A program made the position numbers and the translations under genes. Of a stretch of 64,000 bases of DNA, positions 3,500 through 64,000 are shown piece by piece; positions within the stretch are counted from its first letter, which is position 1, and each line of letters starts with the position of its first letter. This DNA comes from Harriotta raleighana (taxonomy: Eukaryota), in NCBI GenBank assembly GCA_050575255.1, contig JBNZDD010013686.1, positions 2,913,286 to 2,977,285 of the forward strand, given 5' to 3'. The notes beneath the pieces are model-generated. The model saw only the letters and a program-made list of their open reading frames with translations. It did no database searches and was not told the origin of the DNA.

Positions 3500-3649
3500 T
3501 TTGACATGTATGTTGAATAAACTCAGTATTTTTTCAACAAGTTAAAATGACATCTTTCAACTAAATCCATAAAACAACAAAGTCATTGATTGTTGGTCTT
3601 AATTTAATTCCAGCAAAATATCTAACATCTTATACAAGGTTGCCCAACA

Positions 3650-11261: not shown

Positions 11262-11525
11262 AACTCCATCCCGCAATTCCTTCACCTCGCTTCCTCCCTT
11301 GCTTCCTTTAAGGCCTGTCTCAAGACCCTCCTCTTCGATCGTGCCTTCTACCGCCCTCCCAACTCTCTCCCTGCCCTCCTCTCCTCCCTACTCTGCCTCT
11401 CCCCCTCATCATGTCCCGACCTGACTGTTCAGTGCCTTGGGACGTCCTCCCGACGTGAAGGGCGCTCTATAAATGTAATTTTGTTGCTGTTGTTGTTATT
11501 GTTGTGTTGTTGTTGCTGTTGTTGT
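11262..11525 (+). mobile_element. L2 LINE 3' end, unit 2 copy
   Basis: Identical to 6362-6625. Confidence 0.85.
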
Positions 11526-12971: not shown

Positions 12972-13299
12972 TAATAATAATAATAATAATAATCCTTGTA
13001 TTTGATATAGCGCTTTTCACATCTTATCGACGTCCCAAAGCGCTTCACAGAGTATACTGTAAAGTGAATTGACTGTATATTTGTGGGCGGAATGCGGCAG
13101 CCAATTGCGCACAGCAGTGTCCCACAAACAGTCATGGATTGAAATGACCAATTTTATTATTGTGGTTATTTTGGAGGGATTATTATTAGGCATGTGGAGT
13201 AAGGAAACTTGCCCAAGGTTCGCCCTGATCTGCCTGCATTCGAAACAGATCTCATGCTTGTAAGGCGAGTGATCCAACCACTGAGCCACAGGAGTTCCA
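12972..13299 (-). mobile_element. SINE family 1, copy C (junction of units 2 and 3)
   Basis: Identical to copy B. Confidence 0.9.
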
Positions 13300-14893
13300 T
13301 TTGACATGTATGTTGAATAAACTCAGTATTTTTTCAACAAGTTAAAATGACATCTTTCAACTAAATCCATAAAACAACAAAGTCATTGATTGTCGGTCTT
13401 AATTTAATTCCAGCAAAATATCTAACATCTTATACAAGGTTGCCCAACAGTGAAGCACTTGTACACAGTGTAGCTGAGCCACACAACTCAGGAAACACTT
13501 GGGTTTGATTCCCAGTCTGTGCTCAGATGACTGAGGTCAGTCAGCTTTGTCATAATAGGGGCCCTTTATCCAGACACTGCTGAATCAGAGTGAAAAACAA
13601 TCAAACAGCGTTACAACTCCTGATCACTGACCAATAACTCGTGTTGAAAGGTGTGCATATTGGACATATAGGAAGTTTTTGCTTGTTTGTGTGGCCCCTC
13701 AGAATCACATTGTCTGCCACGATCAATCCTCAGAAACAAAGAATGGCTTTTAGGGCAGACCCTGCTATCACAATATACTCTAGCATGAGTCACTGTCTGC
13801 AGGAGATAAATGAAGAAAATTGGTGGCAAAATATAAACTGAACTCTAAGTAAGAAATATTAATATTTTCAAATATATCGAGACAATAAAATGCTAAACTC
13901 ACATTCATCGCTGGAATAACTTGACATCATAATCTACAAATTTAATCATGTGTCATTCTTTCCTATGGTTCAGTACATCATAGACTATATCCACAGGTTT
14001 TAAATTTAAATCAAGTCATGTTTGTTGGTTTGATCCCTGTTCAGTGTCAGCATCATAGTTTTTTCCCTTTCCAGTGTTCCATCATTAGAAATATATGTTG
14101 GATTTAAAACCTTTTTTGCTATGGTTAAGGTTTTCAACAACTTCAGATGCAATTTCAAAAACATTTGTGTTGATTAAATATATAGTCTATTGAAAAGAGC
14201 ATCTTTTCATAACTGGTATCCTCCTTAAGAATTTCGCTTCAGGTGCAATTATTTTTCAGCAACTGAGTCCAAAATGGGTTTCAATCAATTTTAGATTTTA
14301 TGAAATTTTAAGCACAGTAATAGGGTTGGCCCTTTTTTGAGGTTAAGAAGAACAAGAAGAGAAGCCCCACAAGAAGAAAACCTACATTTTCTTCTGCAGA
14401 GAAAAGCTATTCCATACAGTGTTTTAACAAATAAAACTTAGAGGAAGTAAATATACCACATTTGTACAGGATTTATATCAAGGACTTTTGTTTAAAACTA
14501 TATTTGGAAAAATGCATTTGAGAACAGTAAGAACATATTTTTTAAAAAATGATTTTTAACAGCCTTGAAACATTCTTGACACTTACATTCATCATACAAA
14601 GATTACAACCTGGACTTGACGGGATTTGATAAAATTCACATACACGTTGGGAATAATTGTTTCTGAACATTCATGCTTTTTTGAGGTAAAGTAGATCACC
14701 AAATCTGTCTATTTATCACATTTTGATTGTCCACATATATTATTCTATCTTTTTCCTTCCCCCTCTTTTCTTTAAATGACTGTCTATGTTATATCTACAA
14801 CAAATTCACTTTGAACATTTGCTCCGTATCCATCTGAAACTAATGGCTTCAAACTTCTTACTACACACATAGCTGACAGTTCTTGTCAACTAC

Positions 14894-15044
14894 CTTTGTG
14901 AATGGATCTTTATTCTGAATGACTCTGTCCACATAGCCTTGAGCACTGGCGTCTCATCATTGGGGCAATTTCTATGAAATTTAACTGCAGAAATATGAGC
15001 ATATTCTTTGCAAAGCTTATTTTGAACAAAAAATCCTGGTTGGT
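14894..15044 (-). CDS. Third copy of candidate 151-nt exon
   Basis: Identical to 5094-5244. Confidence 0.3.
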
Positions 15045-16161
15045 CTGAAGAGATGCATTTATTTTCTGATCCTACATATGACATATTTATTTAAAAATGG
15101 GTTACTGTAGATTTGATCTGTACAATACTTCTTTGAAAACGTGGCATAAATCTGCAACTGTTTTAGGAACAAATGATTCATTTCCACGACTATTATATTA
15201 AACAATTAGCAAAAATAGGCTATTTAACCAATGTCAACCAGTGACTATCACAGAAAATGGGAACAATCTACAGATCAATTTCATTAGTCCCCGTAAATGG
15301 TCTACATGTTTATTGCAATGCAGCCATGCATTTCCACAATAGTGTATTAGTGGAGCTGCTTTTTATTTTTCTAAAGAGATTTGATTGAAAGCAATTGTTC
15401 AAAGCATGGAAATAGTATTCTAAGGTCTGTGAATGAAGGCTCAGTTTGAAAAGTCATTAACTGTTCATATACCACAGGATGTTCAATTAACTTATGCATA
15501 TTACATAGTTGTATAGTTTTACACCTGGGCATGGTTCCATTGGAATTGGTTTGATATTTCATGGGCTTCTCAAAGTCATGATAAATCCTTTATTCACAAC
15601 TCTGTGAAAGCTCTGAATCTGGATCGAGACTATACCTTGAAATAAAGTCGAACAATATGAAAGTTTCAAATGAAGGACATAAATAACATTGCCTTCATTA
15701 TTTCCCATATCCTGGAGGTAAATGTTTAAATTACAGCACCATGAGGTGATGGGTTACCTGATTTATAACCCAGTGACATTTGCAACATTATACTGCTTTT
15801 AAATCAGTAATAGAAGTGATACTCGTAGAACATAGCAAGTAAACAAATATGACCTAGTTATATAGCTCTCGGTGAGATACAAATACTTCTTTCTGTTTAG
15901 TTGGCTCCATTGTTTTCTCATGCTATGTTGCATTAGTATAAATATTACCATCAAGCAAAAACAATATCGATGAGTATTGAATGCATGCTGTCCCCCTCCC
16001 CAAGACAGACAGATTTCCATAACTAGATTCTTACACAAGCACCACCACAACTGGTGAATGGAGTCTAAACTGAGGTGATGAGATAAGAAAAGAGATGGTG
16101 GGGGGGGGGAGGGAAAGGGGAGGAGTCAAAAGGTGCAGCAGCCACATTCGCAAGCATCACT

Positions 16162-16425
16162 AACTCCATCCCGCAATTCCTTCACCTCGCTTCCTCCCTT
16201 GCTTCCTTTAAGGCCTGTCTCAAGACCCTCCTCTTCGATCGTGCCTTCTACCGCCCTCCCAACTCTCTCCCTGCCCTCCTCTCCTCCCTACTCTGCCTCT
16301 CCCCCTCATCATGTCCCGACCTGACTGTTCAGTGCCTTGGGACGTCCTCCCGACGTGAAGGGCGCTCTATAAATGTAATTTTGTTGCTGTTGTTGTTATT
16401 GTTGTGTTGTTGTTGCTGTTGTTGT
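16162..16425 (+). mobile_element. L2 LINE 3' end, unit 3 copy
   Basis: Identical to 6362-6625. Confidence 0.85.
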
Positions 16426-17871
16426 AACTACATGACAACCAGCAAAAACCCTCTTTGTTGCTGGTAACTATGTGAAACTAAATTAAATGTGTCTGGTTTG
16501 AAACCTTGTTGTAAGGACCCAATAAATAACATGATACAGCACCACAAACAACTTGTTACACAGCACCCTGCTGTATGTATTGAGAGAGCACAAGTACACA
16601 ATGACTTGATAGTTGAGTGGCCTGGAAGCTCTTTTCACACTGCTATGATTTCAGGGTTGAGGTGCAGTATTGACTAACCACAAGTAGCGTTGTACCCTCT
16701 GGATGGGAAGTTTTGAATGCAATAACTTCTCACCCAGAAGAAGAAGATAAATTGTTTGCTTCTTGTCTCATGGTGGCCAATCACAGCAATGTCCCACAAA
16801 CCACCCAAACAATTAGGTTTCGGAAAAACTGCAGCCCACATATAAATATTAATTGTTACAGATTTTAATTGCCACTGCATAATTTGAATAGGAAACAAAG
16901 CCCAACAAATCCAATCGCATGTGAAAGCAATTACAATCCCCAATTCCCAAAAAATAATATGTGGAAAAATATTTTGTTTTCTGGGCGAGGGGCAAAAATA
17001 AAGAAAAGAGACATTGAAGCATTTGACTTATTTAGAAATGAGAAACGTGCCTGGGAAAGTCATAAATACCAGGAAGCTACAAGGCAGACAGATTATTCTA
17101 AGGCTGGGCAAGCTCAACACGGAAGATATGGGTGGATTGTCAATCATGTCAACTTGTTAACGTAATGGCTGTGGCAGGGCTAACAAGCAGAAAAATCACC
17201 AAGGGGTGAGAACAGCATGACACAAAAGATAAACGTGCCAAGGAATGACAATGAGAACATGCGCAAAGTTTAGTACTACAGGAAGCAATGATTTTCTTTT
17301 CATTGTCTGCTTCTAAAGCCTTAAAGTAGTACAGTTTACAAGCTGAGCACACTTCGCTCTTTGTTTTTTTGTCGGGAGTCGCTTTTTTGTTTGAAATAAA
17401 ATGTCTTTCTAAAGTACTTTCTCCCCAATTTTCATTTCCAATGCTGATGTGTACAAATGCAATACTTTCAACTCTCCAGACATGGTTAATGCTTTTGATT
17501 CTTGTTGCAGTGACTCTTATTGAAAGTGCTTGTGGGGGATCATAGGTGAGGACATGGTTGGCTTTTGCTCTGAAACCACCCTCTCCGAATTTATTAGGAA
17601 TGAATCTGATTGCAAGGTGTTGGAAGAATGCTGCTGCCTTTGGAGCTGCACTCTAGCACATGAACCATCTAGCGACACACTGTGCAAATAAAAGCTGGTA
17701 ACAATTTTGACATTGCTGTTGAAGCACTGGATGAGTATCTTTGCTCAGCCCCATAATGTCGTCACTTACTGGCATAATGTATGAACTTTCAGATAGAGGG
17801 TCACTGTTTGTGATCAGGACTGGCTGGAATTTGCCTTCAATAGCCCATGCAATGCTGAAGTAATGTCAATG

Positions 17872-18199
17872 TAATAATAATAATAATAATAATCCTTGTA
17901 TTTGATATAGCGCTTTTCACATCTTATCGACGTCCCAAAGCGCTTCACAGAGTATACTGTAAAGTGAATTGACTGTATATTTGTGGGCGGAATGCGGCAG
18001 CCAATTGCGCACAGCAGTGTCCCACAAACAGTCATGGATTGAAATGACCAATTTTATTATTGTGGTTATTTTGGAGGGATTATTATTAGGCATGTGGAGT
18101 AAGGAAACTTGCCCAAGGTTCGCCCTGATCTGCCTGCATTCGAAACAGATCTCATGCTTGTAAGGCGAGTGATCCAACCACTGAGCCACAGGATCTCCA
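17872..18199 (-). mobile_element. SINE family 1, copy D (right boundary of triplication)
   Basis: Identical to B/C up to 18193, then ggatctcca versus ggagttcca and a unique flank. Confidence 0.9.
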
Positions 18200-18287
18200 C
18201 GATGTACACCCAATGTACACCCAGATGTTCCAGCTGGGCCTGACTTAATCCCAATGTGCATTACTTTACTGAAAGTAATTCAACTTT

Positions 18288-18852
18288 ATCAATCAATCAA
18301 ATCCAAATTTTATTTATATAGCGCCTTTCACGTCGGGAGGACGTCCCAAAGCGCTGTACAGCCAAGTAGGGGGGGGGGGCTCAGGGAAAGGAGTAGGAAA
18401 AATTGACTGTATATTTGTGGGCGAAACGCGGCAGCCAAATTGCGCACAACAGTGTCCCACAAACACACACAGAAATGGGGGAAAAAAGGGGGGAAAAAAT
18501 GGCAAGGGGGAGAAATGGAGGGAAAAGCGGGGTGGGGTAAAATCAGGGAAGAAAAGGGGGGGGAGAAAGGGGGACAAGGGGGAAATCAGGGAGGGCAAAG
18601 AGGGAGAAATGTTGGTAAGTGGGAAGAGGGAGGGAAGGATGGGTAGGAGGCAAAACCAGGGAGAAAGGGGGGTAAGGGGGAAGAGGGAGGAAAGGGAGAG
18701 AGGGAAGGAGAAGAATAAAAAGGGGGAAAATCAGGGGGCAGGGGGAGTTTAAACAACAACAACAACATCAACAATAATAAACAAAAAAGTAAATAACAAT
18801 CAACAATAATAAACAAACACAACAACAACAATAGAAAACACAACAACAACAA
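18288..18852 (-). mobile_element. Retroelement 3' region (probable L2-type LINE 3' UTR) with (GATT)n tail, purine-rich tract and (CAA)n
   Basis: atcaatcaatcaa tail, cctttcacgtcgggaggacgtcccaaagcgc motif, segment shared with SINE family 1 (18403-18464), G/A tract 18476-18748, (caa)n 18751-18852. Confidence 0.7.
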
Positions 18853-19162
18853 TTAATGACTGTCCAATGCTGGACATTACAGAACCAAAACAGGCCATTT
18901 GGCCCAACTAGTCTATGCCATTGTTTATGTTCCAGATAAACCTCCACACATTCTCACCTTTTCTCCCTATCTATCCTCCTCCCATTCTGAATTCCCTTCA
19001 TTCTTATATATGCTTGCTATTTCTATTATTCCATGCCCTAATCAATGCATTTGTGCTGATTATGCTGTGATATTTTTGGGATTTGGAAGTCATTCATAAT
19101 GTATTATTTTATACCATAGCTAACAAAAGGGAAATGGTCACTTTCTAACAACTGTTCAACTA

Positions 19163-19400
19163 AACAACAACAAAATTACATGCATAGAGTGCCTTTCACA
19201 TCGGGAGAATGTGAACAGTCAGGGGTCGGGATCCGAGCATAGGGGAAGGGGAAGGATGGAGTGGGAGGGGAGGGAGAGAGGTAGGAAGACAGCAGAAGGC
19301 ACGATCGAAAAGGAGGGTCTTGAGATTGGGTTTGAAGGAATCAAGGGAGGAAACAAGGGAAAGGGACTGTGGGATGGAGTTCCAGATTGTAGGGGCACTG
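19163..19400 (-). mobile_element. L2 LINE 3' end
   Basis: Minus-strand ORF contains APTIWNSIPQSLSLVSSLDSFKPNLKTLLFDRAF; (gtt)n tail. Confidence 0.85.
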
Positions 19401-20744
19401 TTGTGTGCGAGAGGGCACACAACAGTGAAGGTACCAATCTGAGTTTACATAATTTAGTGGAATAGTCCTTGTTATATATTCAGTAGCATTTATTCCATTC
19501 CCTTTTATTAGTATTTTCTTTACACTGAACAATGATAGCATTGATTTTTTTTTGTCATACAGAAACAGAAAGGTCAAGTGTGAGTTTTTCCACGTGTTAC
19601 CGGTGAGCTGTACCCACCTCAACTACTGTATCTGCTATTCTATGAACCTGCTGTTCGCATTTTATTTAATGTCTTGAGTGGATATGGTCCAAAGTATTTT
19701 AAAATCCTCTTTCGCTGCAGTACTTCTTGCTTCACAAATCACAGAGGGACAAAGGGTTAATAACAATAAGATTGGTACTTCAAAATTGCAGTCATTGGTA
19801 CATTAAAAAAACAGACTTGTGAGATTTCTAACCAGTCCGGAAGGGTGAGAATAGCTGCTTTGTCATCTTATCATAAATACACATATCCTGACATGGTGTC
19901 AGTTTATTCGCTTCTGTTGTTTGAAAATTAGTCCATTCACTGTCTTTTGGGTCCTGATTGGCTGCCATGTTTATTTAAGCAGTCTGAGAATGGTTGGTAA
20001 TGATAAACTTCTTCACGGGATATTAAACACTGTAATCCTTCACATTCCTAGTTGGTCTTAACAGTGCAGAATAGACTAAGTGGAAAGCTTTTTCTGAGAT
20101 ACTGTCTGTGTCTGCAACAGCAGCATTCGTTTAAAAGCTTCACTGGACTGAACATTTTTTCTTAAAATATTTCATTTGCTGGTTCATGAACTAGCACCAA
20201 TGATGTGTCTAAAATTCAGTACAGTCATTTGGAAAGCCCAACAAGTCAATTTCCTAATGCGGGAATAGTGGATCCACTATCTACATTGCTACTCTGCAAA
20301 TATACATTAGATACCTGTTGTTAAGCCAGTGAATTTAGACCACAAGTGAGTGGAGTTGAATTATGCATGAACAAAAATCTTGTGTCGAGAAGTCCACTAC
20401 CAAAAGTGGTAATCACGAGTTACATAATCACACACCTTCCCCAGGGTTTGGAACATTCAAAATGGAGAGCAATGTGAGTGTTACGTCAGACAATTCTATG
20501 AGTAATCTCATTCAGCGAAGCTGTAAGGGTCGAACCAAAGTGGGGAGAGCAAGGGTTAGGGGAGAAACAATTGCATGTGCCAGTGTAGTTAGAGTACTTT
20601 TCTGATGTTGTAGCTGGAACATGTTTTGGGATGGAGTAAAATAAGGTTTCCTCTGCAACATATTTAGACTTAGTGCTAAAACACCAAATTATCCTTTACC
20701 CCAAATGGTATGGATGTTCCCTCATTACTGATGTCCATTACTGT

Positions 20745-30053: not shown

Positions 30054-30209
30054 AAGTGACATGTTTTTAGTGAATCTTCAATATATTTGAGTACCAACTT
30101 ACTGTTTTACCGTATTCTATTATTTTTCTAGCTCAATACATCTTATAGATTATATTTGACAGTGGTTGTGTTAACATACATACCATGCTTATTCTGCCGG
30201 GGCACCTTT

Positions 30210-30548
30210 AATAATAATAATAATAATCCTTGCATTTGATATAGCGCTTTTCACATCTTATCAACGTCTCAAAGCGCTTCACAGAATATACTGTAAAGTG
30301 AATTGACTGTATATTTGTGGGAGGAATGCAGCAGCCAATTGCGCACAGCAGTGTCCCACAAACAGTCGTGGATTGAAATGACCAATTTTATTATTGTGGG
30401 TTTTTTTGGGGGAGGGTTTATTATTAGGCATGTGGAGTAAGGAAGCTTGCCCAAGGTTTCACCCTGATCTGCCTGGATTCGAACACAGGTCTCATGCTTG
30501 TAAGGCATGTAAGGTGAGTGCTCTAACCACTTAGCCACAGGAGCTCCA
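30210..30548 (-). mobile_element. SINE family 1, young full length
   Basis: Minus strand: A box TGGCTAAGTGG, B box GTTCGAATCC, (TTA)n tail. Confidence 0.92.
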
Positions 30549-33500
30549 AGGTATATCCAAGGTAAATAAAAATCCTATTAAAAATAAATTGGCAGAGCTG
30601 ATGAAAACACCAAATGTTCAGCAACTGAAATTACATTGTTGGTTTCTTTCTTTCATTTCATCAACTACATTTATGGTCCTATTCGCTAGTAAATTCATAA
30701 CACCGTAACTTTAATACTGTATAACTCATAATACCTTGGAGTCTCTGCATGAACTATTTACTTGTTGAACAACAAAAACAAATTATATTTGTATACTGCA
30801 GGGAGTAAAGTAGAAACAAAAATGAAAATGGCTTGGATTTGAAGTTAAAAAAATGAATTAAGAAAAATCAGGCAGAATTTAGATTGCATAATATTTGCTT
30901 CGAATATGAAGGTTCTGAGAGCAGCTGATCAATCTCATTGGTAGATAAGTGCCTACAAAAAATACACAGTCACATTACTTTCGAGTACGTTCTGCAAAGT
31001 GCTTTGAGATATCTTCATGACATGGTAAGATGCTATATCCAATGCAAGGATTACTATTATATAAAATCTTTTTTTATTATAATGTTATTTATTATAATAT
31101 AATAATAAACTAGTTGAATTACTTCCTAAATGTCATTCATTCTTTCTGCAGATTACAATGTTTTCAGAATACTTGTCAACTGTTACTTTCTCTGTTAGCG
31201 CAACAGCCACATACTGCAATTTAAAAAATAAAATTGTTGAAACTATTATTCTTATTTGAACTTTTCTTCCTGTGTTTTTGCCTCCAATACATCCCACTTC
31301 AACATTTAGAAAATAGCCTCACTGTTTCCAAATATTGCCACATTGTTATAGTTTTATTTTCAATAACATCATTTCTAAAAACTTGCATTGAGATAAAGCT
31401 TTAAAAGTTTCACTTTTACCAAGCAAGCCATCATTTTATTTCAGCCTCTTATACTGAAAACAATTGTCCCATGTCGACACTTCAAAATATCTACACAAGA
31501 AGTGTTTATAGTTATTTGAACTCAGTGATTATTTTCCAAGCTGAAAAAGAACATTTCAAAATGATCAGTCCATTGGATGAACTAACAAAATTACTGATGT
31601 ATCTGGTGTGCTCAAAAACAAAACTAAAGCATAGAGGCAGTACTGTATTACATTTCGTTGTCTCATACTGTTGAATGCTTATGAGTATAACACGTTAAAT
31701 CATATTGTTTGCTTCCTGTATCTGAACCCTGAGAATAACTAACAATATGTTATATAAATTGCGGATTCTATTTTCCCTTTTCTCTTTAGCTTTTACATAA
31801 TGATTTTCAATGAATCTGCATGTAGCATGAGAAATGTATCAGGTGGTGGTACTTTATCACTGTCCTGCACTTAGTCATTTTTTTCCTCACGTTTCTCAGT
31901 GCCTTACCACCTATGTGTACGAAGGCTAAGTACACTTTCTGAACAATGACAGAACAGGAAAAGGTCAACAGAGAGCTGGTGTACTACCCCCCAAAAATGC
32001 ATCACGGTGAACTTAAATCAAATTGCCTAGTTTCAGAGTATTAATGCCAATGAAAGAAGCACTTACCATTGAAATGTGTTCATTTCCTTTTAATGTGTAC
32101 AGAAATTCTCATCACTTCCTCCCCTACAAAGGTGTACCATTATTTCAAGGTGCAGAGAGCTCAGATACGGATAGGATGAAGGACAGAAACTTGTCCATTT
32201 ATCAAACTCACTCCCTCACACTAAGGAAGATGTTCCAATGCTGTGCAGTGAAAGAACTACAGGACTGAGACCTTCTCATTCAACCAAGATTGGTTCATAC
32301 AAAAGTCGACAATACACCATTGAAAGCCATTGTTGATATTCAACATTTTTTAAATAGCTGAACAGAATAGACAATATGGCTGAGCGGAAAACTTGGTCAG
32401 GAGTTGACCCGGAGTTAGTGTGCTATTAAAACAAGAAGCTCAGACATGTATCCATAATGAACAGACACGTTAACTTACAAGAATGTAAATAATAAATGCT
32501 TGTACTGTGGATAATTGTGAACTTTACATTTCTGCCAGTCTAAAAGCAGTTGTCATTAAAACAACAAGCTAGGGGCCAGTGTCTGCAACAGCTAACTTTC
32601 ACATGCACGAGAAAACAAGTCTTTTGTCAGCACAAAAAAAAAGCTGATACTTGCCCATGGTATACCGTGTTTGTCAAAATGTAAAACTGAAAAACAAACA
32701 AAAATTGATGTTTATAAATGTAACTGGCCTGGCATAAAACCAAAGCGTTTTAGCAAGTGAATAGATTCTTTAATAATTGTGCACAATACATTTTCAAACT
32801 GTCCATAAGTCATGGTAACCAGTCATGAGTCCACTTCACATGTTGATTACCACCAGACTCTGGGGTTAGTAAGCCACACAACTAAATACTGCTATAGGCT
32901 GCTTTTTTGATAGCTTAGGCTCCAAGCATTTCATTCTACGAAGCTTCTGGAGACAATGCAAATACAATAGCACATTCATATTTTACACTTGACAAACCGT
33001 AATCTCACTTTGTGTAAAAGTTTAATTGTTATTAATGAAAGATGACCGAGAGGATAGGCGCGGAGGCGACTGAAAATGGGAAATTCATTGAAATAGGCTC
33101 GTCTCAAATCCCTAACCTCAAAGGTGGTACCTAAACATGAATGATGAGGAAAAGGGGCTTCATCTAACAGCAGTTAACTGCACTCTGTCAAAGCTAATAG
33201 AGAGGCAGTCAGGCTTCTGGTTACTCCTGGGCGTCACCTTTTTGGGGAAAATAAGATCATCTGTCCTGTCCAGTATCAGTTCTAAATATGACAGATGAGG
33301 TTTTCATTACCATCATCCCGAGGCTTTTGAGAAATTTTTCCTTTCAGTAAGTGCCAGAGCCACTTGAATATGTTATATTCATCTGAAAATTGCAGCTATC
33401 ACACACAGTGCTATCAATGCATTACCTGACCATGTATTTCAGTATTCAGGCATTGAAACCTTTGCTGTCTGACTCCGAGCAGAAATACAAGCTGTCTGCT

Positions 33501-34973: not shown

Positions 34974-35940
34974 TTGTCAATCGTGTCAAACATTCCAAGT
35001 GGACTTGGGAAGTTTCTGCACATGAATTTAACCCAGAGCTGACTGCATGATATTTCTGCTGGGCATTGTCTTCATTTTATTTCATCACAATTGCAGTAGC
35101 TGATTTGCACCTCATACAATGTGATGTGTTAAATTCACACATTCATACAGAGTAAAACAACAGTGCTTAACTGTTTTGTTCTCCCCTGTATGAAGTGTGA
35201 ACGACCTTTCTGAGTCTGTTAGAGACCGTAAAATTTGTAAAGGTAAATCTTGCTCACATTCAATAGTTTAAATGGGATTACAATCAGTGTCTACTCCCAA
35301 TATTCCTTCCTCTTTCAAATGCAGAATTTATCTTCTAAAATAAAAATTTGAAATCCAAACCATGGATGAGCATTTCAAAATTCAAATGGGTGCACTGATG
35401 AATAATAATAATAAACCAAGATATTAAAGTTGTTACGATTAGAGATATCCATACCCCTCTGTAATAATACTAATATTTGATTATAGGGATATGCCCCTAA
35501 AGTGAAACACACTAAACAAATATAATTTTGTTGTTGTTGTTGCAGTACCTTTCACAGTGGAACGACATCTCAAAATGCCAACAAAACAGGCAGACAGGAT
35601 CTCAGTTCAATGTTTCATCCATCGGACATGATCTTTAACAATATAAAATTCCTCCAGAACTGTAATACAGCAAAACAACATGAAATTACACTTGTATCCT
35701 GCCTTTCATGTCAATAGTGTCTGGCTGGGCTATGAGCTCAAAGTTCTGATATGAGACTTGAACCCACAACCTTCTGACTCGGAAGCAAGAATGCTGTTGA
35801 CTCTTATTCAAATGTTAGATTTCAGATCGTTCTGAAGAAACAGAATTCAATCTGCTTTCCCCCAAATTGATCACTGATTGGAGAGACTTTATTTGTAGTT
35901 GTTTAAGTAATCCAAGATCCTACTCAATTCAAAGGGTGCT

Positions 35941-36090
35941 TGTATAGTTCCGACGAAGGGTCGTGGATCCGAAACGTTTTCCTTTCTCCATAGATGCTGC
36001 CTGACCTGCTGAGTGTTCCCAGCGATTTCTGTTTTTGTTTCAGATTTCTAGTATCTGCAGTATTTTGCATTTTTCTAAATTACAGTATAT
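35941..36090 (+). mobile_element. Short Penelope-like element with mutated hammerhead motif (copy 1)
   Basis: agttCCGACGAagggtcgtggatccGAAACgtt followed by agatgctgcctgacctgctgag...; matches 39755-39912 and 49065-49227. Confidence 0.7.
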
Positions 36091-39754: not shown

Positions 39755-39912
39755 TATACTGTAATTTAGAAAAATGCAAAATAATGCAGATGCTGGAAAT
39801 CTGAAACAAACACAGAAATCGCTGGAAACACTCAGCAGGTCAGGCAGCATCTATGGAGAAAGGAAAAGTGAGTTAACGTTTCGGATGCACGACCCTTCGT
39901 CAGAACTATACA
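39755..39912 (-). mobile_element. Short Penelope-like element (copy 2)
   Basis: Highly similar to 35941-36090 including both ends (tgtatagtt...ttctaaattacagtata). Confidence 0.7.
39871..39907 (-). ncRNA. Minimal type I hammerhead ribozyme motif
   Basis: AGUU-CUGACGA-A-GGGU(CGUGC)AUCC-GAAAC-GU-U-AACU: both catalytic boxes, stem II, stem I AGUU/AACU and loopless palindromic stem III ACGU. Confidence 0.7.
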
Positions 39913-42900
39913 ATTTATATTTATTTGGTGCCTTTCATGAGGAGGATGCCTCAAATGGCTTAAGATGCACTGTGTTTTCATGTCATTTGCTAAATCATTT
40001 AACGAGAAAGGTGCAGGAATGCACCCTGGTTTCCCAACACCTTATCCAGGACACAAAGGCTAATTGTACCACTCCCTCTACACTTTGGCTAAATAGGCAC
40101 ATGAGCATTTTAGTACCATATTCTGCATTTATTGCAATTCTATTGTGTAAACTTGATTATCTCTAGTTTAAAATGTCAGCTACATATTCTGGATGACTTC
40201 TTTTCAAATACAATGATGGAAATAAGATAATATGCAACCTGAAGTGATCATTACCTTTTCATTGTGAGCTCTGTCTCCTGCAGGTGTGAATTTCTGTTAG
40301 TGAATGGAATGGGTGTTGGGCTGCCACAACGAATATGGCCTGATTTTACCCAATCATTAAGGGAAATGGTTATTCCTTCAGGTCTTGTTTCATACCACAT
40401 TATGCTGTTCCCATTGTGTAATATTTTGCATACTCTTTCAGAGGTAAAAAGGCTGGTTCTTCACCTCTTTTTCACCTATTTAATAAATGAGCCTTAATAC
40501 TGTCAGCTTCACAGGAGGCCAAGAGGTGTAACATCAGACTCAAGTGAGATAAGAAATTGACAGATTAAGGGAATTAAGAAGATTATGAGTTACTGGTGAA
40601 TAAAACTGTAAAGTTGAGGTGTGAAGATTGTTTGGTGTTATTTCTGGCTCAAGCCTCGTATTAACCCTTTAAGAACATACATTCAAAAGTATTTGGTTTC
40701 TTTATTTCAGAGAAAATGATGACATTTCATGCAGCTCACATTAACACCATTAAACTCCCATACCATTCTAGATAGGGTTTACTTAAATATGTTAGTTTGC
40801 AGGAAAAATTGAGCATGTACTTTTTTTTAACAAGAGCCAATCCCTAGGTTATGCCAAATAGTTTTCCTAGATAATCATTTTAATTCTCCTGTAGAGATCG
40901 TACTGAATGTTGTAATAAACTCAGAAATGAATGGCAGTTCAGGTTTTGATTTACTTGCAGCTGTTGAATAACAAGACAATCTGATAAATACACAATAGGG
41001 GTACAATGCCCCTAGCATGATCTCCTATCACATAATCTGTTATTTTAAATATAAATTATTTTCCACATCAATTGTATTTTCACACACTCACTGCTGGCTT
41101 GTCAGAAATTTCATTATAATCATTTCCCCTCTTTAGCAGGAGGTGAAATTTGTCCCATTTGCCAAATAAGTTCTTAAACTGCAGAGGAGTTGATCTAAAT
41201 ATTTAAGGCAAATGACCTGGTAGGGGAGGAGTAAATAGGTTTGAGTGAAACATGGGAATGATTTAAAAATAGAGCAATACTGTACTACTTGGAACTTAAA
41301 AAAATGCAATACCATGGAATGTTGTCAATCACACACATGCCTATGCAAGCAGCACGTGTGATATAGTCAAATAATCTTGAACACAAGATAACATACTGGG
41401 CCTTCTTCCATATCTGACATAGCACACTTTTTGCAAACTTAAATTTGAATAAAGGAAATAACATTGAATTGTGTGACGTTACTCAAAACTTATATTTTTA
41501 CAATGGGCTCATATTTCATTACACAATGTTGCACCTCACACGATTGTTCGTTTCAAATTCCTTTGCACATGTAAAGCAGGTAAATTAATCTGTGCATAAA
41601 TTACTCTGAAAATAAGGTATTATTGCTGGATTTAGTACATTTAGTTTGCAGTGGTATTGGATGAGGGGGACTCAAACACATCTTAAATGGGATGAAATTG
41701 ATTCTGCTTCAAATTATATTGAACAAAATGAGATGAATGGCAAATAAATTGGTACACTACTGTATTTAACAGCATCAGTACAAGAGGAAAGCAAAATGTT
41801 TCAAATGCTGTACCTTTTGCATATTAATCTGCAGCAGACTTTCACTTCATGTGGTCTCCGACACAGCAATATCAAAAGAAACTGTCAAATCTGAAACCTA
41901 ATCCAATTATACGCACTGCCAGAACTTGCCATAGCTGTTCTGATAAAGCTTCAGACTTTATCAAAATGGAAATTAATGATGAATGAACCACAGGTATGGA
42001 CTTCCATTTTAACATCACAAAATTGTAATTAAAATACTCTGATAACCGTTTAAAAAAGTAAGCTATACTGGATTCCTAAAATACTTATTTTAGGAATTTA
42101 ATTTTTTTGGACCTTTTTTCCAGCATACAATATCATATATTCTGAGTTTGAAAGTGACTTGGTTATATTCCATCTAATTTATTCTTTACTATAAGTGCTC
42201 TTGAGAAAAATCACATAGAGCAAAAGACTAACTTTTGCTATTCTGATCTTTTTAAACAGTTAGATTGCATTTAAAATATGTAGATCACGTGCAATGCATT
42301 TCTAATGCAATTCATGGTTAATTCATGTTAAGTAACAAAACTGTATATGCACAAATTTCTACTCAAGAATGTCAATGTATTTGCGTTTTGCTTTTTTTTG
42401 CCCCTCAGGAACTATTACATCCCCAGTTTATTCTGGAATATTTTGTACATTCACTAAGCAAGTAAAAAATTAAATGCCTAAAATAAGTATTTTAGTACAC
42501 AGAGATCAATTCACTAAGCAGGTAAAAAATTAAATGCTAAAATAAGTATAGCTTACTTTTTTAAACGGTTAATTCACTCTGAATGTTTTTTTTAAATGTT
42601 GGGATAAGAACAATACTGATGAATTCAATGAAGTGCGTGAAGTCCTATGTTTTTTCTGCATCTATTGGCAATGCAAACAAGACATATTCTAGGTTTTATT
42701 TCTTGTGCCAATTTTTCTCATCTAAATGTTCTCCTATTCCTTCTTTTCCCCCCCACTTACTGAAACAGTTTGGATACCAATTTTTTTCTTCTTCTGGCAT
42801 AAGGCTCTATTGGGTACTAATTTGTCCCACATTTATTGATCCCTATCACAATGAAGGATAGAATAGGAGCAATAATAACCAAGGGAAATAGCCCAGGCCA

Positions 42901-44325: not shown

Positions 44326-47186
44326 TAACAGTGGGAAATACTGAGGTTGAACTGAAAAAAAACACAGCAAGAAAGCCTTTGACAAGGCCTGACAGAAGTC
44401 ACGGTGGTTCTCACAGCTTTCCGCTCTTTTGAAAAAAAAAACACTCACTTCAAGAAACACAACAAAATACAGTTTTTGAAAGCTTGAAGCTTGCAGAGAC
44501 CACTAACATACAATAAGGTTACTATGCAACATCAAGGTAATAGCATTTAAAATATGCACACTTGGGAGACAGTTTTGAGCAACAGCTTATGTGAGGTTAC
44601 CCCCCAAAAAAACGATTCTATCTCTTTAAGAAATTCAAACAATTCTAGTGATACAAAATAAGTATTGTTAAACCTCTGTATCTTATGAAACTGCATTACA
44701 TATTCATGTGCATGGAGTACATCAGAACATTATACCCTGATGCTGGCAGTCAGTTTTTACCATTTTAACTACATGATTAATATCAGCTTCTGCAGGAAAT
44801 TAAACTTAAAAAATTTCAATATGTAGATTAAAAGACAAAATTACAGACACTGGATAATGCAGTACAGTTGATTAATTTTCGTCCCGTGAATGCAAAATCT
44901 TCCAGCAATCTCGTGTGCAAGTCTTGCAAAAATGTCACATTTCAGAATGCAGCGCAGTGCTATCTGGTACTGAGGGCTGGTCCCAGCTGCAGCTGGCACC
45001 ACACTTACACTGCCTGTCAGGAAGATGATGGGTGAATGTAAGGTCTAGCTGTAAAATAATTGAATTTTCATATCAGAGGGAAACAGAATTTCCCAGACAA
45101 TGAAAATGCTGAGTCTCACACTGTTATTTGCAAATACCCTTTGCCACATTACTCGAAATCCAAATGTAAATTTCTGATTTTTTTTTTCCTTTCAGTGCCA
45201 CATGCTTCTTCAGTGTACAACCATCTGTATGAAAATGGAAGCAGATAATAAGTAGCCAAATCTCATATTATTAGAATAGTAATTTACTTGCTGAATCGGA
45301 CAGAGTGCTGTCTCTGTATTTTTGCCAATGTGAATATGACTAAGGTTTAATTAAGTTTCTTGAACTCCGACCTTTCTTAAAGGCAAAACATACCAGCAAG
45401 TTTCGAAAGTGGAGTGAGGAAATCGCCTGCTTCAAGAAATCGCACCGTTTACCAGCGAAGAAAATCATATTCCGTGTCAAAAACAAAAGTTAAGGTGGAG
45501 ACCATCTTTCCATATTCAATTTCCTCGCAAGCACAATGAAAAAACTGTTTCTATAATTACAAGTAAATTGGGAAACACTTGAGACCAAAAGTATCTTGAT
45601 GCATTTTTGCCAACATTCTCCCCTGCTCCTCAGACCCTTGCAGGCGGATGTTTCCATGGATGGTAGGACCTCTTAATGGGATCTTGCACCAGTGTATATT
45701 CTTGATATTAAGCAGAGATCGTGAATGTTGACAGGCTGTTCCAATGTATTACAGTTAAGGCTGATTCCCACCTGCAGTCTACACACACTTTCTAGCAGGT
45801 GGTCACTAGCTCACTATGAAGACAAGGAACCTTTGCTGTTGTTCTCTGACACTTGTCAATGGGGCAACAAGGTAAATTATAGTATCCCAAATATTGCCCC
45901 ATCACAAATCAACTGCCTTAACATCCACAAATGAAGGAATCATTTACAGGATCTCACCTTGTGAGAAAAACTGTTATTTCAATTTTTGTAATAAATGTTA
46001 ATTGCATTGTCATTAAACTTGGTATGATATCGATGTCAGATCCTAATTCCAGTGATAGTCCAGTAGTACAGGGCCTAGAAAGCCACTGATTCCTTTATCC
46101 GGGAAATTAATCTCTTCAAATTAAGATTGTAAAATCACAGTGGAATTTATATTTACAGTACCTAAACATGCTGCTGCACCAACAATAAGAACTTTACATT
46201 ATATGGTCCTTGAAGTGTATGACCAAGATAGGAATTTGTGAGTGCATCTCCATCTAGAGTTTTTCCACCATAAAGATGAATATATTAATATATTGTAAGA
46301 AACAGATGACTATATTTTAGTCATCTGCCTCTATGTTTTATTTCGGCATTAGCCAAAAGGAGCTTGACAATGCTGTAGGCCCACTTAATGCAGATCAGAA
46401 AAGCAACAACAACAAAATTACATTTATACAGAGCCTTTCACATCAGGAGGACATGCCAAGGATTGTCAACGTTTCGAATAAACTGTACCGTTCTTCTAAT
46501 TTCTAACTTTTTAAATATAGTTTAAAAACTATATCTGAAATTCAAACACATGTGTTTCTCTAAACTTAGTTCTTGTTTTATGTCATGTGATTAGCCTATC
46601 AGTTGGCAGTATACTCTTCTCAGACTGTAAAAGAGCTTCAATGTAAAACATTTACCAATGCGACAATAACAACAACAAAATTACATTAATATAGTTCCTT
46701 TCTTGTCGGGAGGACATCCGAAGGTGCAAACACATGGAAAGGGGGAAGACTCACTCCAGTTTAAGCTAGTCACTGGAAGTTTTCAGCAACTCTGCAACAC
46801 ATCTAGGAATTCCTTCAGGATGCCATGATTCAATCAATGGGTTGACAAATTGACATATGATGTGACAATTATCACATCATCAAACAACAAGGTCAGGCCA
46901 ATTGATAAGTAAAGATTGGGAGAGGGTGTGAACTCATCAGTCCTTCCCCACCCATCCTTTCCCACTTCAGTGGTTGGACTTGAAGAGAGGCTGAAACCTG
47001 AAACAGCCAACACAGGTTGTTTCAACATGTTGAAAGACTATCTAAAGAAAGTTATTTATGTTTCACTGCATGCCTAACATTCATCAGGAGAGGTGGTTAA
47101 GGGAAACAAAATTAGAGGGAGAGGGGAAAAAAGGAGATAAATAGATATCATACAGTTCATTACCCATGTGTCAGTAGTAAAACTGA

Positions 47187-47500
47187 ATAATAATAATCCT
47201 TCAATTTGATATATTGTAACACTTTTCATGTCTTCTAGAGTTTCAAAGAACTTCACAGAATATACTGTAAAGTAAATTGACTGTGTCTTTGTGGGTGAAA
47301 TGCGGCAGCCAAATGCACATAGCAGGATCCCACAAAACAGTAGTGGATTGAATGAGCAAGTCATTATTGCTTTTTCCTTGAGGGATTATTATCAGGCATG
47401 TGGATTAAGGAAACTTGCCCAGGGTTTCGCCCTGCTGGGAATCAAACCCAAGTCACTCGATTGCAAGTCAAGTGGTCTAACTACTGAGCTACAGGACTCT
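47187..47500 (-). mobile_element. SINE family 1, full length
   Basis: Tail, body, head gggaatcaaacc...ctaactactgagctacaggactc. Confidence 0.88.
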
Positions 47501-49048: not shown

Positions 49049-49064
49049 ACATGAGCATAAAGAT

Positions 49065-49227
49065 AAACAAAACACAAAATACTACAGATGCTGGGAATCT
49101 GAAATAAAAACAGAAGTTGCTGGGAAACTTAGCAGGTCAGGCACCATCCATGGAGAAAGAAAAGCGAGTCAATGTTTTGGGTCCACGACCCTTCGTCAGT
49201 TCTGACAGCAACTTCTGTTTTTGTTTT
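49065..49227 (-). mobile_element. Short Penelope-like element (copy 3) with 14-bp TSD and terminal inversion
   Basis: atgagcataaagat at 49051-49064 and 49228-49241; CTGACGA-A-GGGTC(GTG)GACCC-aAAAC; 49206-49227 is a near-exact inverted copy of ~49102-49122. Confidence 0.75.
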
Positions 49228-51389
49228 ATGAGCATAAAGATGATTAGCGCTGACCATCTTTGAAGAACCATAATAAGATGAAGTAAAACTTAGAAAGAGT
49301 GGAGCACACAGTGTCTTTCCTTGAAGAGCTTGGCTTTATTGCTATGGTAGGTAAGACTCAAATTCGAGGCAGACATATCATAGAGTGGTTATAACAAGGA
49401 CCAACTAGCTGTTTTGGTCTAGAGTAGCCTTGATCTTTGATTGAAAACCTTGATTGCTTCGAAAACTATCTCCTCACTGATCAGCTAAGTAAGACACAAA
49501 TGTCTCCTGTTGGCTGCATTGTCGGAGAACTGCAAGAAGAACACTTCCAAGCTGGCTGAGATGCCAAAAGGGTCTCCAGGGTCTGAAAGTGGAACAACTG
49601 GAAACTTCAAAATGAAAAAGAAATGCTCTTCACAAATGAAAAATACAAATTCTTGACAGGTAGGTCACTGATGTGGTGACATGACACCACAATGATGCCT
49701 GAAGGATCATGGACTTTGGGAAATCTGTTCCACCTAAAATATTTCATGACGTTTATTTGCTGACATACTCCCCACTACTTTACAATTCATTTTTCGCCTC
49801 ATTTCTGGAGCAAATCGGTGGTCAGGAAATAATAACAAGTTAAACTGCAAACACCTCTCATATACCTTGTGCTAGTATCTACTATCTGCCCTTATTATTC
49901 ATGCCCTAAATTATATAATAATCAGTACGATCACATCTGTCAGCCTCATTTAACCTTCTCTGATCTCCCATGATTCTTTGCCGTCAGGACTGAATGCCTG
50001 GTTTCTGCTGACTGGCTGATAACTGGGTGACTGATTGCCCTCCCCATTAACAGACAATGGTATATAGAATTCTCTGACTCATACTGAATATTAATGAGAA
50101 GCTGTGAAAGCTTAGATAAGACTACATAACGAGGTAATAGAGAGGTAAGGAAGAGGAATGAAAGGAAAGGGTAAAGTAAGAATGGGGGAATAGGAAGGAG
50201 AACATATGAGCTGAATGCTTAAGATGGGGGTAAGTAAATGGAAGACGGTCATCATTATGATACAGTGTTCCTACAATTCCTGACGCTCCTGAATAGGCTG
50301 ACACTCATGTAGATAAAGACTATCTGATTGGGAGCTACTGTTTACTAATAAACCACAGCAGTAACACTGGGCTGCTTCCAGTGCTCTTAAACGCAGAGGT
50401 CTCACTCACCAGTCATATGTCTAACCACCCCGTTGAGTTTGAATCATGCTTTAGGACTTACCACTGTTCCGTTGGTTTACTTACAAGTAATCGTAGCACA
50501 GTGAAAGAAAATGGCAATGGAACAACATCTCAAAATTGTTACTTTCATCCGTGTCGATCAACTCTCTTATTTTTTTTGCAAATACTGTATGGAGATCTGA
50601 CCAGATCTCCTGAGGAGCAACAGAAAGTGTAATGGCTGAGTTCAATTGTTCTCATCCATGAGATAAACTTGCCATGTTGGATTTTAAGCTATAATATCTT
50701 ATGACACCCCGGAAGCTCTTTGGTCATCTGTCACATCTAGCTCATATACAACTCCATACTTTAGGAAAATAACAATAAGAATTTGGGGATTCATATATAA
50801 ACAACCAGAGATTCCGTATTGGTGTCTAGTCATTCCTGCTCCAAAGGAATTGTGTGTATATGCATGATAGGTGAAGACAGCATAAAAGTTTGGTATAGAC
50901 TATCTCCTGTTGAGTAACTCAACAACAGTCTGTTTTCTCACACATTAAGAATGACCACTATGGTGGGTCCACTCTTTTGGACCATAAGACAGCATTGTCT
51001 CTTTTGTTTTTTCCTCTTGCCTTGCTGGTACACAACACAATAAGCTTCGATTTTACACTTGGGTTTCAGAATTTTTAAAAAAAAATACTTCGGGAGAAGA
51101 CAATAAGAACAACAACTTTTGATTTATATAGCACTCTCCATGCCGGATGGCGACTCAGAGATGCATCGAAGAGATGGATAAAACTTCACTTTCCAGCAAT
51201 GTTTCATTATTAAACAACAACAAAATTATCTTATTATTAAAGCCAGAGAGTAGACATTAAGACAACTATGACTTTTCTTCAAACTGTTAAAACTTCAGTC
51301 AATGGTGAGTGGTACTACTCTGCACACATTGGATGCTACCTTAATCTGAAAAGGTTTTTTCTTTCGTCTTTCATTTCTCTTCATCTTCA

Positions 51390-61911: not shown

Positions 61912-62256
61912 TAATAATAATAATATAATAATAATAATCCTTGCATTTGATATAGCGCTTTTCACATCTTATCAACGTCCCAAAGCGCTTCACAGAGTAT
62001 ACTGTAAAGTGAATTGACTGTATATTTGTGGGCGAAATGTGGCAGCCAATTGCGCACAGCAGTGTCCCACAAACAGTCGTGGATTGAAATGACCAATTTT
62101 ATTATTGTAGTTTTTTTTGGAGGGATTATTATTAGGCATGTGGAGTAAGGAAACTTGCCCAAGGTTTCGCCCTGATCTGCCTGGATTCGAACACAGGCCT
62201 CATGCTTCTAAGGCATGTAAGGCGAGTGCTCTAACCACTGAGCCACAGGAGCTCCA
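61912..62256 (-). mobile_element. SINE family 1, young full length
   Basis: Minus strand: TGGAGCTCCTGTGGCTCAGTGGTTAGAGCACTCGCCTTAC...GTTCGAATCC, intact A/B boxes and (TTA)n tail. Confidence 0.93.
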
Positions 62257-64000
62257 AAAATATCCTTGACCCAAGTGAAAAGAGGGTGTTAAGCTAAACA
62301 GCAGAACTACTGCCTGGTAAAATGTTTTCAAGAAATGCATTGACTCACACAAGGCCAGTAGTCTTCAACATGAAGCACGACAAAGGAAAAATAAGTATTA
62401 AGTACAGAATGGTTTAAACACAAATAACATTTGGGGATTTTTTTGTATGCCGTTTTTGAAAAAAAGACCTTAAAGTTAATTGTTTTTATATAACGGAGTG
62501 GAACATTGTGGGTGTATTGCGTAATTTTTTAACAATATAACGAGAAAAATAATTCAGAAACAATTTCCCTTTTGAAGAGGAGAGGGATCAGATGGTCTGT
62601 GTCATGCTTTTCCTTCTCCTTATTTGACTTCACTGGGATCCATGTACACAAGTCACCCACTTGCCCGAGGGGCTTTTTTGTTTTGGCCTTAACTCCGGGC
62701 ACTTGCAGGCTATTGAACTGTCAGAACATCACAGTGGAACCTGATCTTTCCTTCTTCCAACATCTGCACACGCATGTACATTCCAGCAGGCTTCTAGCAA
62801 AATAAATTTACTGTAGTCAATTTCAGTGGAAACGGTTAAAGGCCAATTGGCACCATGCACCGTCCATTCCTCTACCACCCAGGGTTCTGGAGGTCACGGA
62901 CCTCACTGAGCAACCATTGCCAAGGTATTTCTTTAGGATGAGCTAAAATTTGTGCAGGTTTGAGTGGCATTCACCACTGGGGCTCTAGCCTGTAAATTGG
63001 TTACGGAGCAAATACTCTGCCACTTGTACAATTAGGCCTGTAAGGATTTGCTGAAAGATTTACTTTAAAAAGCAGGACCATGGTGAGAGGTTGTCCTTTC
63101 TTTGAGACAGTATGAAAACTGATTAATTGATATGCCCAGCTTGTCATATGACCTAGTGTGAGCTGATGTAGTTTGTTTAGTAAATGGAATAAAAAGGAGG
63201 ATAAAATCGGATTTCCAATCCCAGCTCTTATGCAGCACAGATAAACCATTAATAAATAGACTATAGCATTTTGTTGCACTCACCAGGCATACCTGCGTTC
63301 ATTTAAAAAAATACTGTACGTTCGATTAGATGTTTGCACATGTTCTAAATCTCTACACAAACACACACAAAGCCACATAGTACTTCAGCTTTATTTTTCA
63401 TTCAGTGCACTGCCTTAGAATCCTCTATCAGCTTGCTTTACAGAAAATAACTTTAATCTACTCACTGTAACATTCAACCAACTCAGTTTGCTGATGTGGA
63501 CACTTCCAACAGTATAAGTACAATAGATTAGATATTCTATTATATGGCATTCTTGTACATACAGTATTTGTGATTCATTGTGACAATTTCAAATGTTATT
63601 TGCATAAATCTGATTTCAGTCTGGAAAGATGACTAAACAATCACTCTCTTGAATTGTGCATTTGATCAATAACTTCAAACCTTGTTTCTCTGTTCAGTGT
63701 CCACCAATACAAGCCCTTTGAGATATTATTCTACATGAAGGGAATCGTGTCAATTTAACAGATACTGTTATTTGATGACATCTCTGAAACGGAGGTGATG
63801 AGCAGGTCATTAGAAATGATAAACTGTAGCAATATTGGAAAAATAAAATGATATGCAGTTTCTACATATTCAGAGATTAGACAGGTTTCTGCATGATGCA
63901 GTATCAGAGGGCCTAACATGCAGAAGTTAAAGCTCGATCTTAAGACTGATCACAATGAAGTCAAGTCTTCAGCTTGCCAAGATAGATTTCTCAGTCAAAA

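What the first reader, a model, noticed from the sequence alone, without database searches (positions are those of the whole stretch)
39755..39912. Short non-coding mobile element carrying an intact-looking minimal hammerhead ribozyme
Seen on the minus strand (39907->39871): AGUU CUGACGA A GGGU-CGUGC-AUCC GAAAC GU U AACU. Stem I closes (AGUU/AACU), the predicted cut follows GUU, and stem III is a loopless palindrome (ACGU). Stem II pairing is kept across copies (GGGTC/GATCC, GGGTC/GACCC). Downstream, AGAUGCUG/CAGCAUCU encloses two small hairpins (GCUG/CAGC, UCUG/CAGA). Established: Penelope-like retroelements carry minimal type I hammerheads with palindromic stem III proposed to cleave as dimers. 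Inference: with three copies in ~13 kb and no ORF, this looks like an abundant non-autonomous, ribozyme-processed retroelement family (retrozyme-like). It is sense to the putative minus-strand host transcript.
Basis: partly seen in the sequence, partly recalled or inferred. Interest (0 to 1): 0.8.

Follow-up and report, generated by a model that had tools for sequence, protein, structure and literature searches.

The report
Penelope retrotransposon stub with minimal hammerhead
The motif is a real minimal hammerhead ribozyme sequence, but it sits in a short dead copy of the end repeat of a Penelope-like jumping gene, a kind described in 2014; the one unusual point is that such copies mostly start right at the ribozyme's head, not at its cut site.

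Summary
The motif is there as described (39907-39871, minus). It heads a 138-bp repeat with three copies in the window and at least 5,254 arms in the genome. It is not an ORF-free retrozyme family. It is the pseudo-LTR of a Neptune-type Penelope-like element: 23 of 29 loci picked on the GIY-YIG region carry it downstream, and 11 of 20 loci picked on the ORF start carry its tail 27-37 nt before the start codon. Optional 33-nt tail, inverted arms and 8-14 bp target duplications match published Penelope anatomy. Tandem arrays are essentially absent. Copies decay neutrally: catalytic G8/G12 are lost as often as other CpG sites, stems do not covary, and 4 of 47 copies are intact. In the window only this copy keeps the core. 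One point goes beyond what I found in print: 39 of 53 arms begin within 11 nt around the hammerhead's 5' edge, against 2 of 77 at the cut site. The best reading is run-off cDNA from uncleaved RNA that starts there. Cleavage and expression are untested.

The parts
39770..39907 (-). Copy A: short (138 bp) copy of the pseudo-LTR module of a Neptune-type Penelope-like element
   Evidence: Boundaries from 30 best genomic copies and end tallies; linked to EN and ORF start in long copies
39871..39907 (-). Minimal type I hammerhead motif: stem I 39907-39904 with 39874-39871, CUGACGA 39903-39897, stem II 39895-39883, GAAA 39882-39879, ACGU palindrome 39879-39876, predicted cut between 39875 and 39874
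   Evidence: Sequence; fits the min-HHR description in PMC4209133; cleavage not tested
39788..39852 (-). Three-way hairpin (outer stem 39852-39845 with 39795-39788, two small inner hairpins); candidate binding site for the element's protein (inference)
   Evidence: Present in minimum-energy and centroid folds; covariation not tested for this part
39770..39803 (-). Optional 'tail' of about 33 nt between the two preferred 3' ends
   Evidence: 3' ends bimodal: 36 and 35 of 92 arms, medians 33 nt apart
39755..39769 (-). Flank shared only with copy B (not part of the family)
   Evidence: Found only in L001 and L002 among loci fetched up
35946..36074 (+). Copy B: sister duplicate of copy A, hammerhead broken (U4C, 9-nt deletion of stem I 3' strand)
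49065..49199 (-). Copy C: second subfamily, hammerhead broken (G12A, palindrome broken), with tail
49200..49227 (+). Short inverted, tail-less arm at the 5' side of copy C
   Evidence: Sequence
49228..49241 (-). 14-bp target-site duplication of copy C, 5' side
   Evidence: Read by eye
49051..49064 (-). 14-bp target-site duplication of copy C, 3' side
   Evidence: Read by eye

Best explanation
The repeat is the pseudo-LTR end module of an endonuclease-positive, Neptune-type Penelope-like retrotransposon of a cartilaginous-fish-like genome. In the parent the module lies both about 255 nt after the GIY-YIG stop codon and directly before the ORF start (shown). The element's RT and GIY-YIG nick the target and prime reverse transcription inside the RNA at one of two sites 33 nt apart, giving the optional tail (inferred from end tallies and PMC11167929). 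On the first pseudo-LTR of a transcript this cDNA reaches the RNA's 5' end after about 105 or 140 nt, just before CUGA, and is inserted as is or after jumping to another template, giving solo stubs, inverted pairs and partial tandems (hotspot shown; that it is the RNA 5' end is inferred, about 0.55). The template is uncleaved RNA. The hammerhead was presumably functional in the parent, as a dimer or with protein help (not tested). Once inserted, copies decay neutrally (shown); copy A is intact by chance and most likely inert.
For: EN upstream in 3 of 30 best copies (tblastn E 7e-16 to 8e-23). 23 of 29 EN-picked loci carry the module downstream on the same strand, 15 of them at 190-250 nt. L055 matches shark and coral proteins with RT and GIY-YIG matches over their length (E 2e-81). 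A CxxxxCxxC linker lies before the EN. 11 of 20 loci have the tail 27-37 nt before the start codon; L233 shows inverted arm, EN end, 3' UTR, module, ORF start and RT. Bimodal 3' ends, inverted arm in 37 of 86 loci, direct repeats of 8-14 nt at the ends of 12 of 35 copies against 9 of 1,188 mismatched pairs. Neutral decay: G8/G12 changed in 30 of 92 cells, tolerant CpG sites in 46 of 138. 5' hotspot 39 of 53, 11% expected; cut site 2 of 77, 4.1 expected. TTAAAA lies 28-30 nt before an initiator-like CCAGTT in all 31 long copies that kept both motifs. Of five loci whose module is matched through the hammerhead before an ORF start, four begin at the head.
Against: No intact ORF and no single complete element with both pseudo-LTRs was found. 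The genome's own broken frames gave no Pfam match (0 of 11; 0 of 1); domain calls rest on homologues, where RVT_1 is below its cut-off, and on an Atlas cluster with GIY-YIG on 40% of members. Some EN-picked loci belong to one amplified composite and are not independent. 6 of 29 EN loci lack the module. For the start-site part: no excess of a cap-derived G (G 7, T 5, A 2, C 27 before AGTT in 41 short arms), the C excess suggests templates often reached one base past the initiator A, and the Drosophila Penelope promoter is TATA-less (PMC2377424).
Confidence: 0.88

Rival explanations
1. The short copies come from one or a few short non-autonomous master loci (a SINE-like mini-Penelope) mobilised in trans, which would explain the shared 5' end without run-off from full transcripts.
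For: Sharp 5' end cluster; short copies far outnumber ORF-bearing ones (first-look candidates 2,559 for the module, 129 for the N-terminal RT part); pseudo-LTRs suffice for trans mobilisation in rotifers (PMC3846280 passages); short and long labels are somewhat clustered (22 changes against 31.6 shuffled).
Against: Short and long arms both occur in every subfamily class (31/11, 6/14, 26/13) and 0% of 200 bootstrap trees give one origin (only 98 columns, weak tree). ORF-bearing copies start at the same place.
Confidence: 0.15
2. Same parent element, but the 5' hotspot is a reverse-transcription block or breakage point (structure, a bound factor at the pyrimidine tract and AG, or a 3' splice site as at the Drosophila virilis helix I) rather than the RNA's start. 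This competes only with the start-site step of the best explanation.
For: The upstream sequence also reads as a branch point, pyrimidine tract and CAG; in D. virilis the intron end maps to the 5' end of helix I (PMC4209133). No cap-G excess. 14 of 53 arms pass the hotspot.
Against: No conserved donor in the 300 nt upstream of 43 long copies, and 0 of 75 short copies carry a spliced upstream exon. Arms that pass the hotspot are expected from the downstream pseudo-LTR of read-through RNA.
Confidence: 0.35
3. A non-LTR retrozyme: a tandem, ribozyme-processed, circular-RNA family.
For: Type I hammerhead in a short non-coding repeat; retrozymes derive from Penelope pseudo-LTRs and many families have solo monomers (bioRxiv 10.64898/2026.07.22.740005). 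One true head-to-tail dimer exists (L222).
Against: 19 direct pairs genome-wide at 60-140 nt spacing, 14 of them across assembly Ns, none of the 8 fetched with two complete cores, against 95 inverted pairs. No end pile-up at the cut site. No covariation.
Confidence: 0.04
4. Copy A is a co-opted ribozyme that cuts a host pre-mRNA.
For: It keeps every core base and a 4-bp stem I.
Against: 4 of 47 neutral copies are intact anyway; stem II is weakened; the active dimer fold is 17 kcal/mol above the best dimer fold in the nearest-neighbour model; no partner core nearby on the same strand; no host exon found.
Confidence: 0.03

Closest known systems
Minimal hammerheads (min-HHR) in the pseudo-LTRs of metazoan Penelope-like elements (Cervera and De la Pena 2014, PMC4209133; first half of the text read)
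   Same: Type I, short helix I, extra base between positions 9 and 10.1, G10.1-C11.1 pair, palindromic 15.2-16.2 with no helix III loop, thousands of mostly single copies, close pairs on opposite strands, found in fish Neptune elements.
   Different: Helix II is 5 bp (7-8 bp in the Schistosoma examples); the parts read name no cartilaginous fish (supplements not seen); variation here is neutral decay, not covariation.
Neptune clade of EN+ Penelope-like elements (Craig et al. 2021, PMC8557442; Arkhipova et al. 2013, PMC3846280; passages read)
   Same: RT then zinc-finger linker then C-terminal GIY-YIG; pseudo-LTR; partial tandems; adjacent inverted arm; optional 30-40 bp tail; short target duplications; solo pseudo-LTRs.
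   Different: The tail lies in the 5' UTR, 36 nt before the start codon, not inside the ORF as in the rotifer Pen2a example; no intact copy found; clade not tested by a tree.
Poseidon of Anolis carolinensis, PAc (Frangieh et al. 2024, PMC11167929; first half of the text read)
   Same: Two internal priming sites bounding the tail, downstream of the hammerhead; uncleaved RNA is the template; no ends at the cut site.
   Different: In PAc the ORF starts in stem II; here it starts 168 nt after C3. A pile-up of genomic 5' ends at the hammerhead head is not reported in the parts read.
Non-LTR retrozymes (Cervera and De la Pena 2020, PMC7229834, passages; Li et al. 2026, bioRxiv 10.64898/2026.07.22.740005, parts 1-3 of 5)
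   Same: Short, non-coding, type I hammerhead, pseudo-LTR origin.
   Different: Defined by tandem units with complete hammerheads and circular RNA; this family is dispersed or inverted and stays attached to the parent ORF in long copies.

Membership tests
min-HHR of Penelope-like elements | Core CUGANGA, GAAA, NUH with type I topology | tested here: met
   Copy A; 571 exact 32-nt cores, control 0
min-HHR of Penelope-like elements | Extra base after position 9, G10.1-C11.1, palindromic 15.2-16.2 | tested here: met
   Majority letters of 47 arms
min-HHR of Penelope-like elements | Stem covariation | tested here: inconclusive
   None within this family (5 double changes, 8.7 in shuffles), as expected of dead copies from few parents; a pattern for other families gave 3 hits that look like variants of this one; no other species held
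min-HHR of Penelope-like elements | Self-cleavage as dimer or with protein help | not testable with these tools
   Needs an in vitro assay
EN+ Penelope-like element | ORF with RT and C-terminal GIY-YIG linked to the repeat | tested here: met
   only broken copies
EN+ Penelope-like element | Pseudo-LTR after the ORF and before the ORF start (partial tandem) | tested here: met
   23 of 29 downstream; 11 of 20 upstream of the start codon, L233 partial tandem
EN+ Penelope-like element | Optional 30-40 bp tail, adjacent inverted arm, target duplication | tested here: met
   33 nt; 37 of 86 loci; 12 of 35
Neptune clade | CX2-5CxxC linker between RT and EN | tested here: met
   Read by eye in L033; Nematis shares it (PMC8557442)
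Neptune clade | RT phylogeny | not tested
   No reference set was held
Non-LTR retrozyme | At least two consecutive tandem units with complete hammerheads | tested here: not met
   19 direct pairs, 14 over assembly Ns, 1 true dimer, 0 of 8 fetched with two complete cores; longer units only partly covered
Non-LTR retrozyme | Monomeric linear and circular RNAs cut at the ribozyme | not testable with these tools
   No reads could be laid

The most novel reading that the evidence does not exclude
The element's transcript starts 4-6 nt before the hammerhead core, so the ribozyme is the first structure of the RNA and cleavage would clip off a capped leader of about 35 nt, some 140 nt before the start codon. 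The thousands of short copies would then be inserted run-off ('strong-stop'-like) cDNAs of uncleaved RNA, and jumps from this 5' end would build the inverted arms and partial tandems by which Penelope elements regenerate pseudo-LTRs. The ribozyme would act as a switch that removes RNA from the template pool rather than as a maker of templates.
Probability: 0.4. Interest if true: 0.55.

Novelty: new member of a known kind. Interest (0 to 1): 0.25.

Why it matters
As a motif it matters little: minimal hammerheads in Penelope pseudo-LTRs are described, and this copy is one of many thousands. The copy ends are more useful. They give an in-genome readout that uncleaved RNA is the template, as shown in vitro for the anole element, and point to a defined RNA 5' end at the ribozyme's head. 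If confirmed, that makes two open questions testable: how pseudo-LTRs and inverted arms are regenerated, and what the ribozyme is for.

Tried and rejected
Rfam at gathering and E-value thresholds: no hammerhead match. Pfam on broken frames of the element: 0 of 11 and 0 of 1. Covariation: none. Selection on the core: none. Cap-derived G at 5' junctions: no clear excess. Spliced upstream exon: 0 of 75. Single short master: not supported, weak tree. Other minimal hammerhead families by one exclusion pattern: 3 hits, control 1. Second loose core match at 47060-47087: taken as chance. Host gene: splice-signal scan gave 14 unconvincing candidates and Pfam nothing above cut-off. Sequencing runs: no RNA holder listed, so no reads were laid. 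Earlier findings by sequence and by place: nothing. The dimer-cleavage paper of Lunse et al. 2017 could not be opened and is recalled only. A paper search for run-off or solo short copies found 0 papers with 3 of 5 terms; searches listed no paper on this family in cartilaginous fish. Rows dropped: 5 of 96 arms were removed as duplicates or cut by a contig end and 5 with internal deletions were re-placed, 2 of 47 arms with large deletions were left out, 40 of 148 heads lacked enough sequence or were doubtful, only copies with short 5' ends and a defined 3' end (35 of 60) were used. The loci are the first in contig order, not random.

Full report
Observation. The minus strand at 39907-39871 holds the motif as written. 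BLAST finds two more copies, at 35940-36089 and 49069-49199. Only copy A keeps the core. Copy B has U4C and lacks the 3' strand of stem I; copy C has G12A and a broken palindrome. A and B share one stem II change and flanks that no other fetched locus has, so they are a local duplicate pair and the 'kept pairing' is not covariation. The loose core is not above chance in the window (2 matches, 1.05 expected), Rfam does not match it, and the 151-nt stretch folds no better than shuffles. Its significance comes from the family.

Family size. The genome is 1.1 Gb. An exact 32-nt core occurs 571 times and an exact 22-mer from the hairpin 5,254 times; reversed controls give 0. The 22-mer is exact in 14 of 30 and 8 of 30 copies picked otherwise, which suggests roughly 11,000-20,000 arms. 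The closest proteins are from rays and whale shark at 55-57% identity, so the host looks like a cartilaginous fish (inference).

Parent element. Six of the 30 best copies extend upstream and three carry a decayed GIY-YIG end there. As an independent test I picked loci on that endonuclease region: 23 of 29 have the hammerhead module downstream on the same strand, 15 at 190-250 nt; 6 lack it. Some belong to one amplified composite and are not independent. L055 aligns over the length of a whale shark and a coral protein (E 2e-81 and 1e-64) that match GIY-YIG at or above cut-off and RVT_1 below cut-off. The genome's own broken frames gave no Pfam match; the Atlas put the EN frame with a GIY-YIG cluster (0.96, family on 40% of members). 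A CxxxxCxxC linker precedes the EN, the mark of Neptune and Nematis (PMC8557442, passages). Picking on the ORF start, 12 of 20 loci have part or all of the module directly upstream and 11 have the tail 27-37 nt before the start codon, which lies 168 nt after C3. L233 shows the textbook 5' end: inverted arm, EN end, 3' UTR, module, ORF start, RT. No intact ORF was found.

Insertion anatomy. 3' ends fall in two groups, 36 and 35 of 92 arms, 33 nt apart: the optional tail of Penelope elements (PMC8557442, PMC3846280, passages), which in the anole element lies between two internal priming sites (PMC11167929, first half read). An inverted arm lies within 300 nt in 37 of 86 loci. Direct repeats of 8-14 nt flank 12 of 35 copies against 9 of 1,188 mismatched pairs; copy C has 14 bp. 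Copy A has no clear one.

Not a retrozyme. A pattern for two cores in direct orientation 60-140 nt apart gave 19 hits; 11 showed an assembly N in the listing, and of the other 8, fetched, 3 more span an N, one is a true head-to-tail dimer and none has two complete cores. The inverted pattern gave 95 pairs. The defining tandem criterion of Li et al. 2026 (parts 1-3 of 5 read) is not met for units of this size.

Decay. In 47 arms picked on the hairpin, catalytic G8 and G12 are changed in 30 of 92 cells and tolerant CpG sites in 46 of 138; non-CpG core 10 of 327, non-core 25 of 703 (p 0.85). Mean divergence is 12%, 11 of 47 keep the core and 4 of 47 keep core and stems. Double changes are fewer than in shuffles (5 against 8.7). 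The majority sequence is a perfect minimal hammerhead, so the parent had it and the copies are not under selection. In the energy model the active dimer of copy A is far from the best fold (-3.3 against -20.0 kcal/mol); the model ignores tertiary contacts. Published single motifs did not cleave and dimers cleaved weakly (PMC4209133); the anole ribozyme needed its protein (PMC11167929).

The 5' hotspot. Of 53 arms that reach the core, 39 begin between 8 nt before and 2 nt after C3, where 11% is expected from the loss rate downstream; 1 of the remaining 14 ends in the next 45 nt; at the cut site 2 of 77 begin, 4.1 expected. The same shows in two other sets, in the inverted pairs and in four of five loci matched through the hammerhead before an ORF start. 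Several loci join an ORF-start fragment directly to a second module that begins at the head, as template jumps from an RNA end would. Upstream, TTAAAA sits 28-30 nt before an initiator-like CCAGTT in 31 long copies of both subfamilies (the motif consensuses are recalled). I read this as the transcript start, with short copies as run-off cDNAs of uncleaved RNA (about 0.55). Against it: no cap-G excess, a C one base further up in 27 of 41 arms (a few are long copies with deletions), and a TATA-less promoter in Drosophila Penelope (PMC2377424, passages). A splice-site reading found no donor and no spliced exon. A single short master is not supported (weak tree). An earlier agent noted the same hotspot in another genome (e1-7858714); that is an unchecked note, not evidence.

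Host context. No exon could be identified in the window, so the 'sense to a host transcript' remark is unverified.

Verdict. A real minimal hammerhead motif in a dead stub of a Neptune-type Penelope-like element: a new member of a known kind. The hotspot is a modest, testable lead; my searches did not find it described, but most subscription papers and the supplements were not seen.

Noticed in passing
window 3183-18199: A 4.9-kb unit is repeated three times in tandem at 99.8% identity, bounded by copies of a short interspersed repeat: a recent tandem duplication or an assembly artefact.
   Followed up: no
window 1261-1560, 30209-30549, 47186-47498, 61918-62257 and others: An abundant repeat of about 330 bp with a tRNA-like head (Rfam tRNA hits at 1261-1332 and 47427-47498): a tRNA-derived SINE, not tRNA genes (inference).
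   Followed up: no
L061-L089 (for example L062, L064, L065, L072): A rearranged composite of the same Penelope element (an inverted RT-EN arm back to back with a forward arm, same breakpoint) recurs on many contigs at 84-90% identity, so it was amplified as a unit.
   Followed up: partly
L080 (about 1.1 kb following the module); also L035, L036, L060, L062, L092, L095: A conserved stretch unlike the element's ORF start follows the pseudo-LTR in many long copies: possibly captured host DNA carried along. Identity unknown.
   Followed up: partly
L233:745-758: A strong splice-acceptor-like pyrimidine tract and AG lies 2 nt before the start codon in 14 of 20 loci; an intron in the 5' UTR could remove the hammerhead and tail from the mRNA. 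No donor was identified.
   Followed up: no
window 35940-36089 and 39755-39913: Copies A and B, 3.7 kb apart and inverted, share about 6 and 15 nt of flank: one is a local templated duplicate of the other.
   Followed up: yes
L222: Inverted arm plus a true head-to-tail dimer of the short unit, joined tail end to hammerhead head.
   Followed up: partly
P0007: A skate protein named neuromedin-U receptor 1 holds a piece 68% identical to the Penelope endonuclease region: exonised repeat or annotation error.
   Followed up: no
L220, L221, L226 and the listing: Single Ns flanked by duplicated sequence are common in this assembly and mimic tandem copies.
   Followed up: yes
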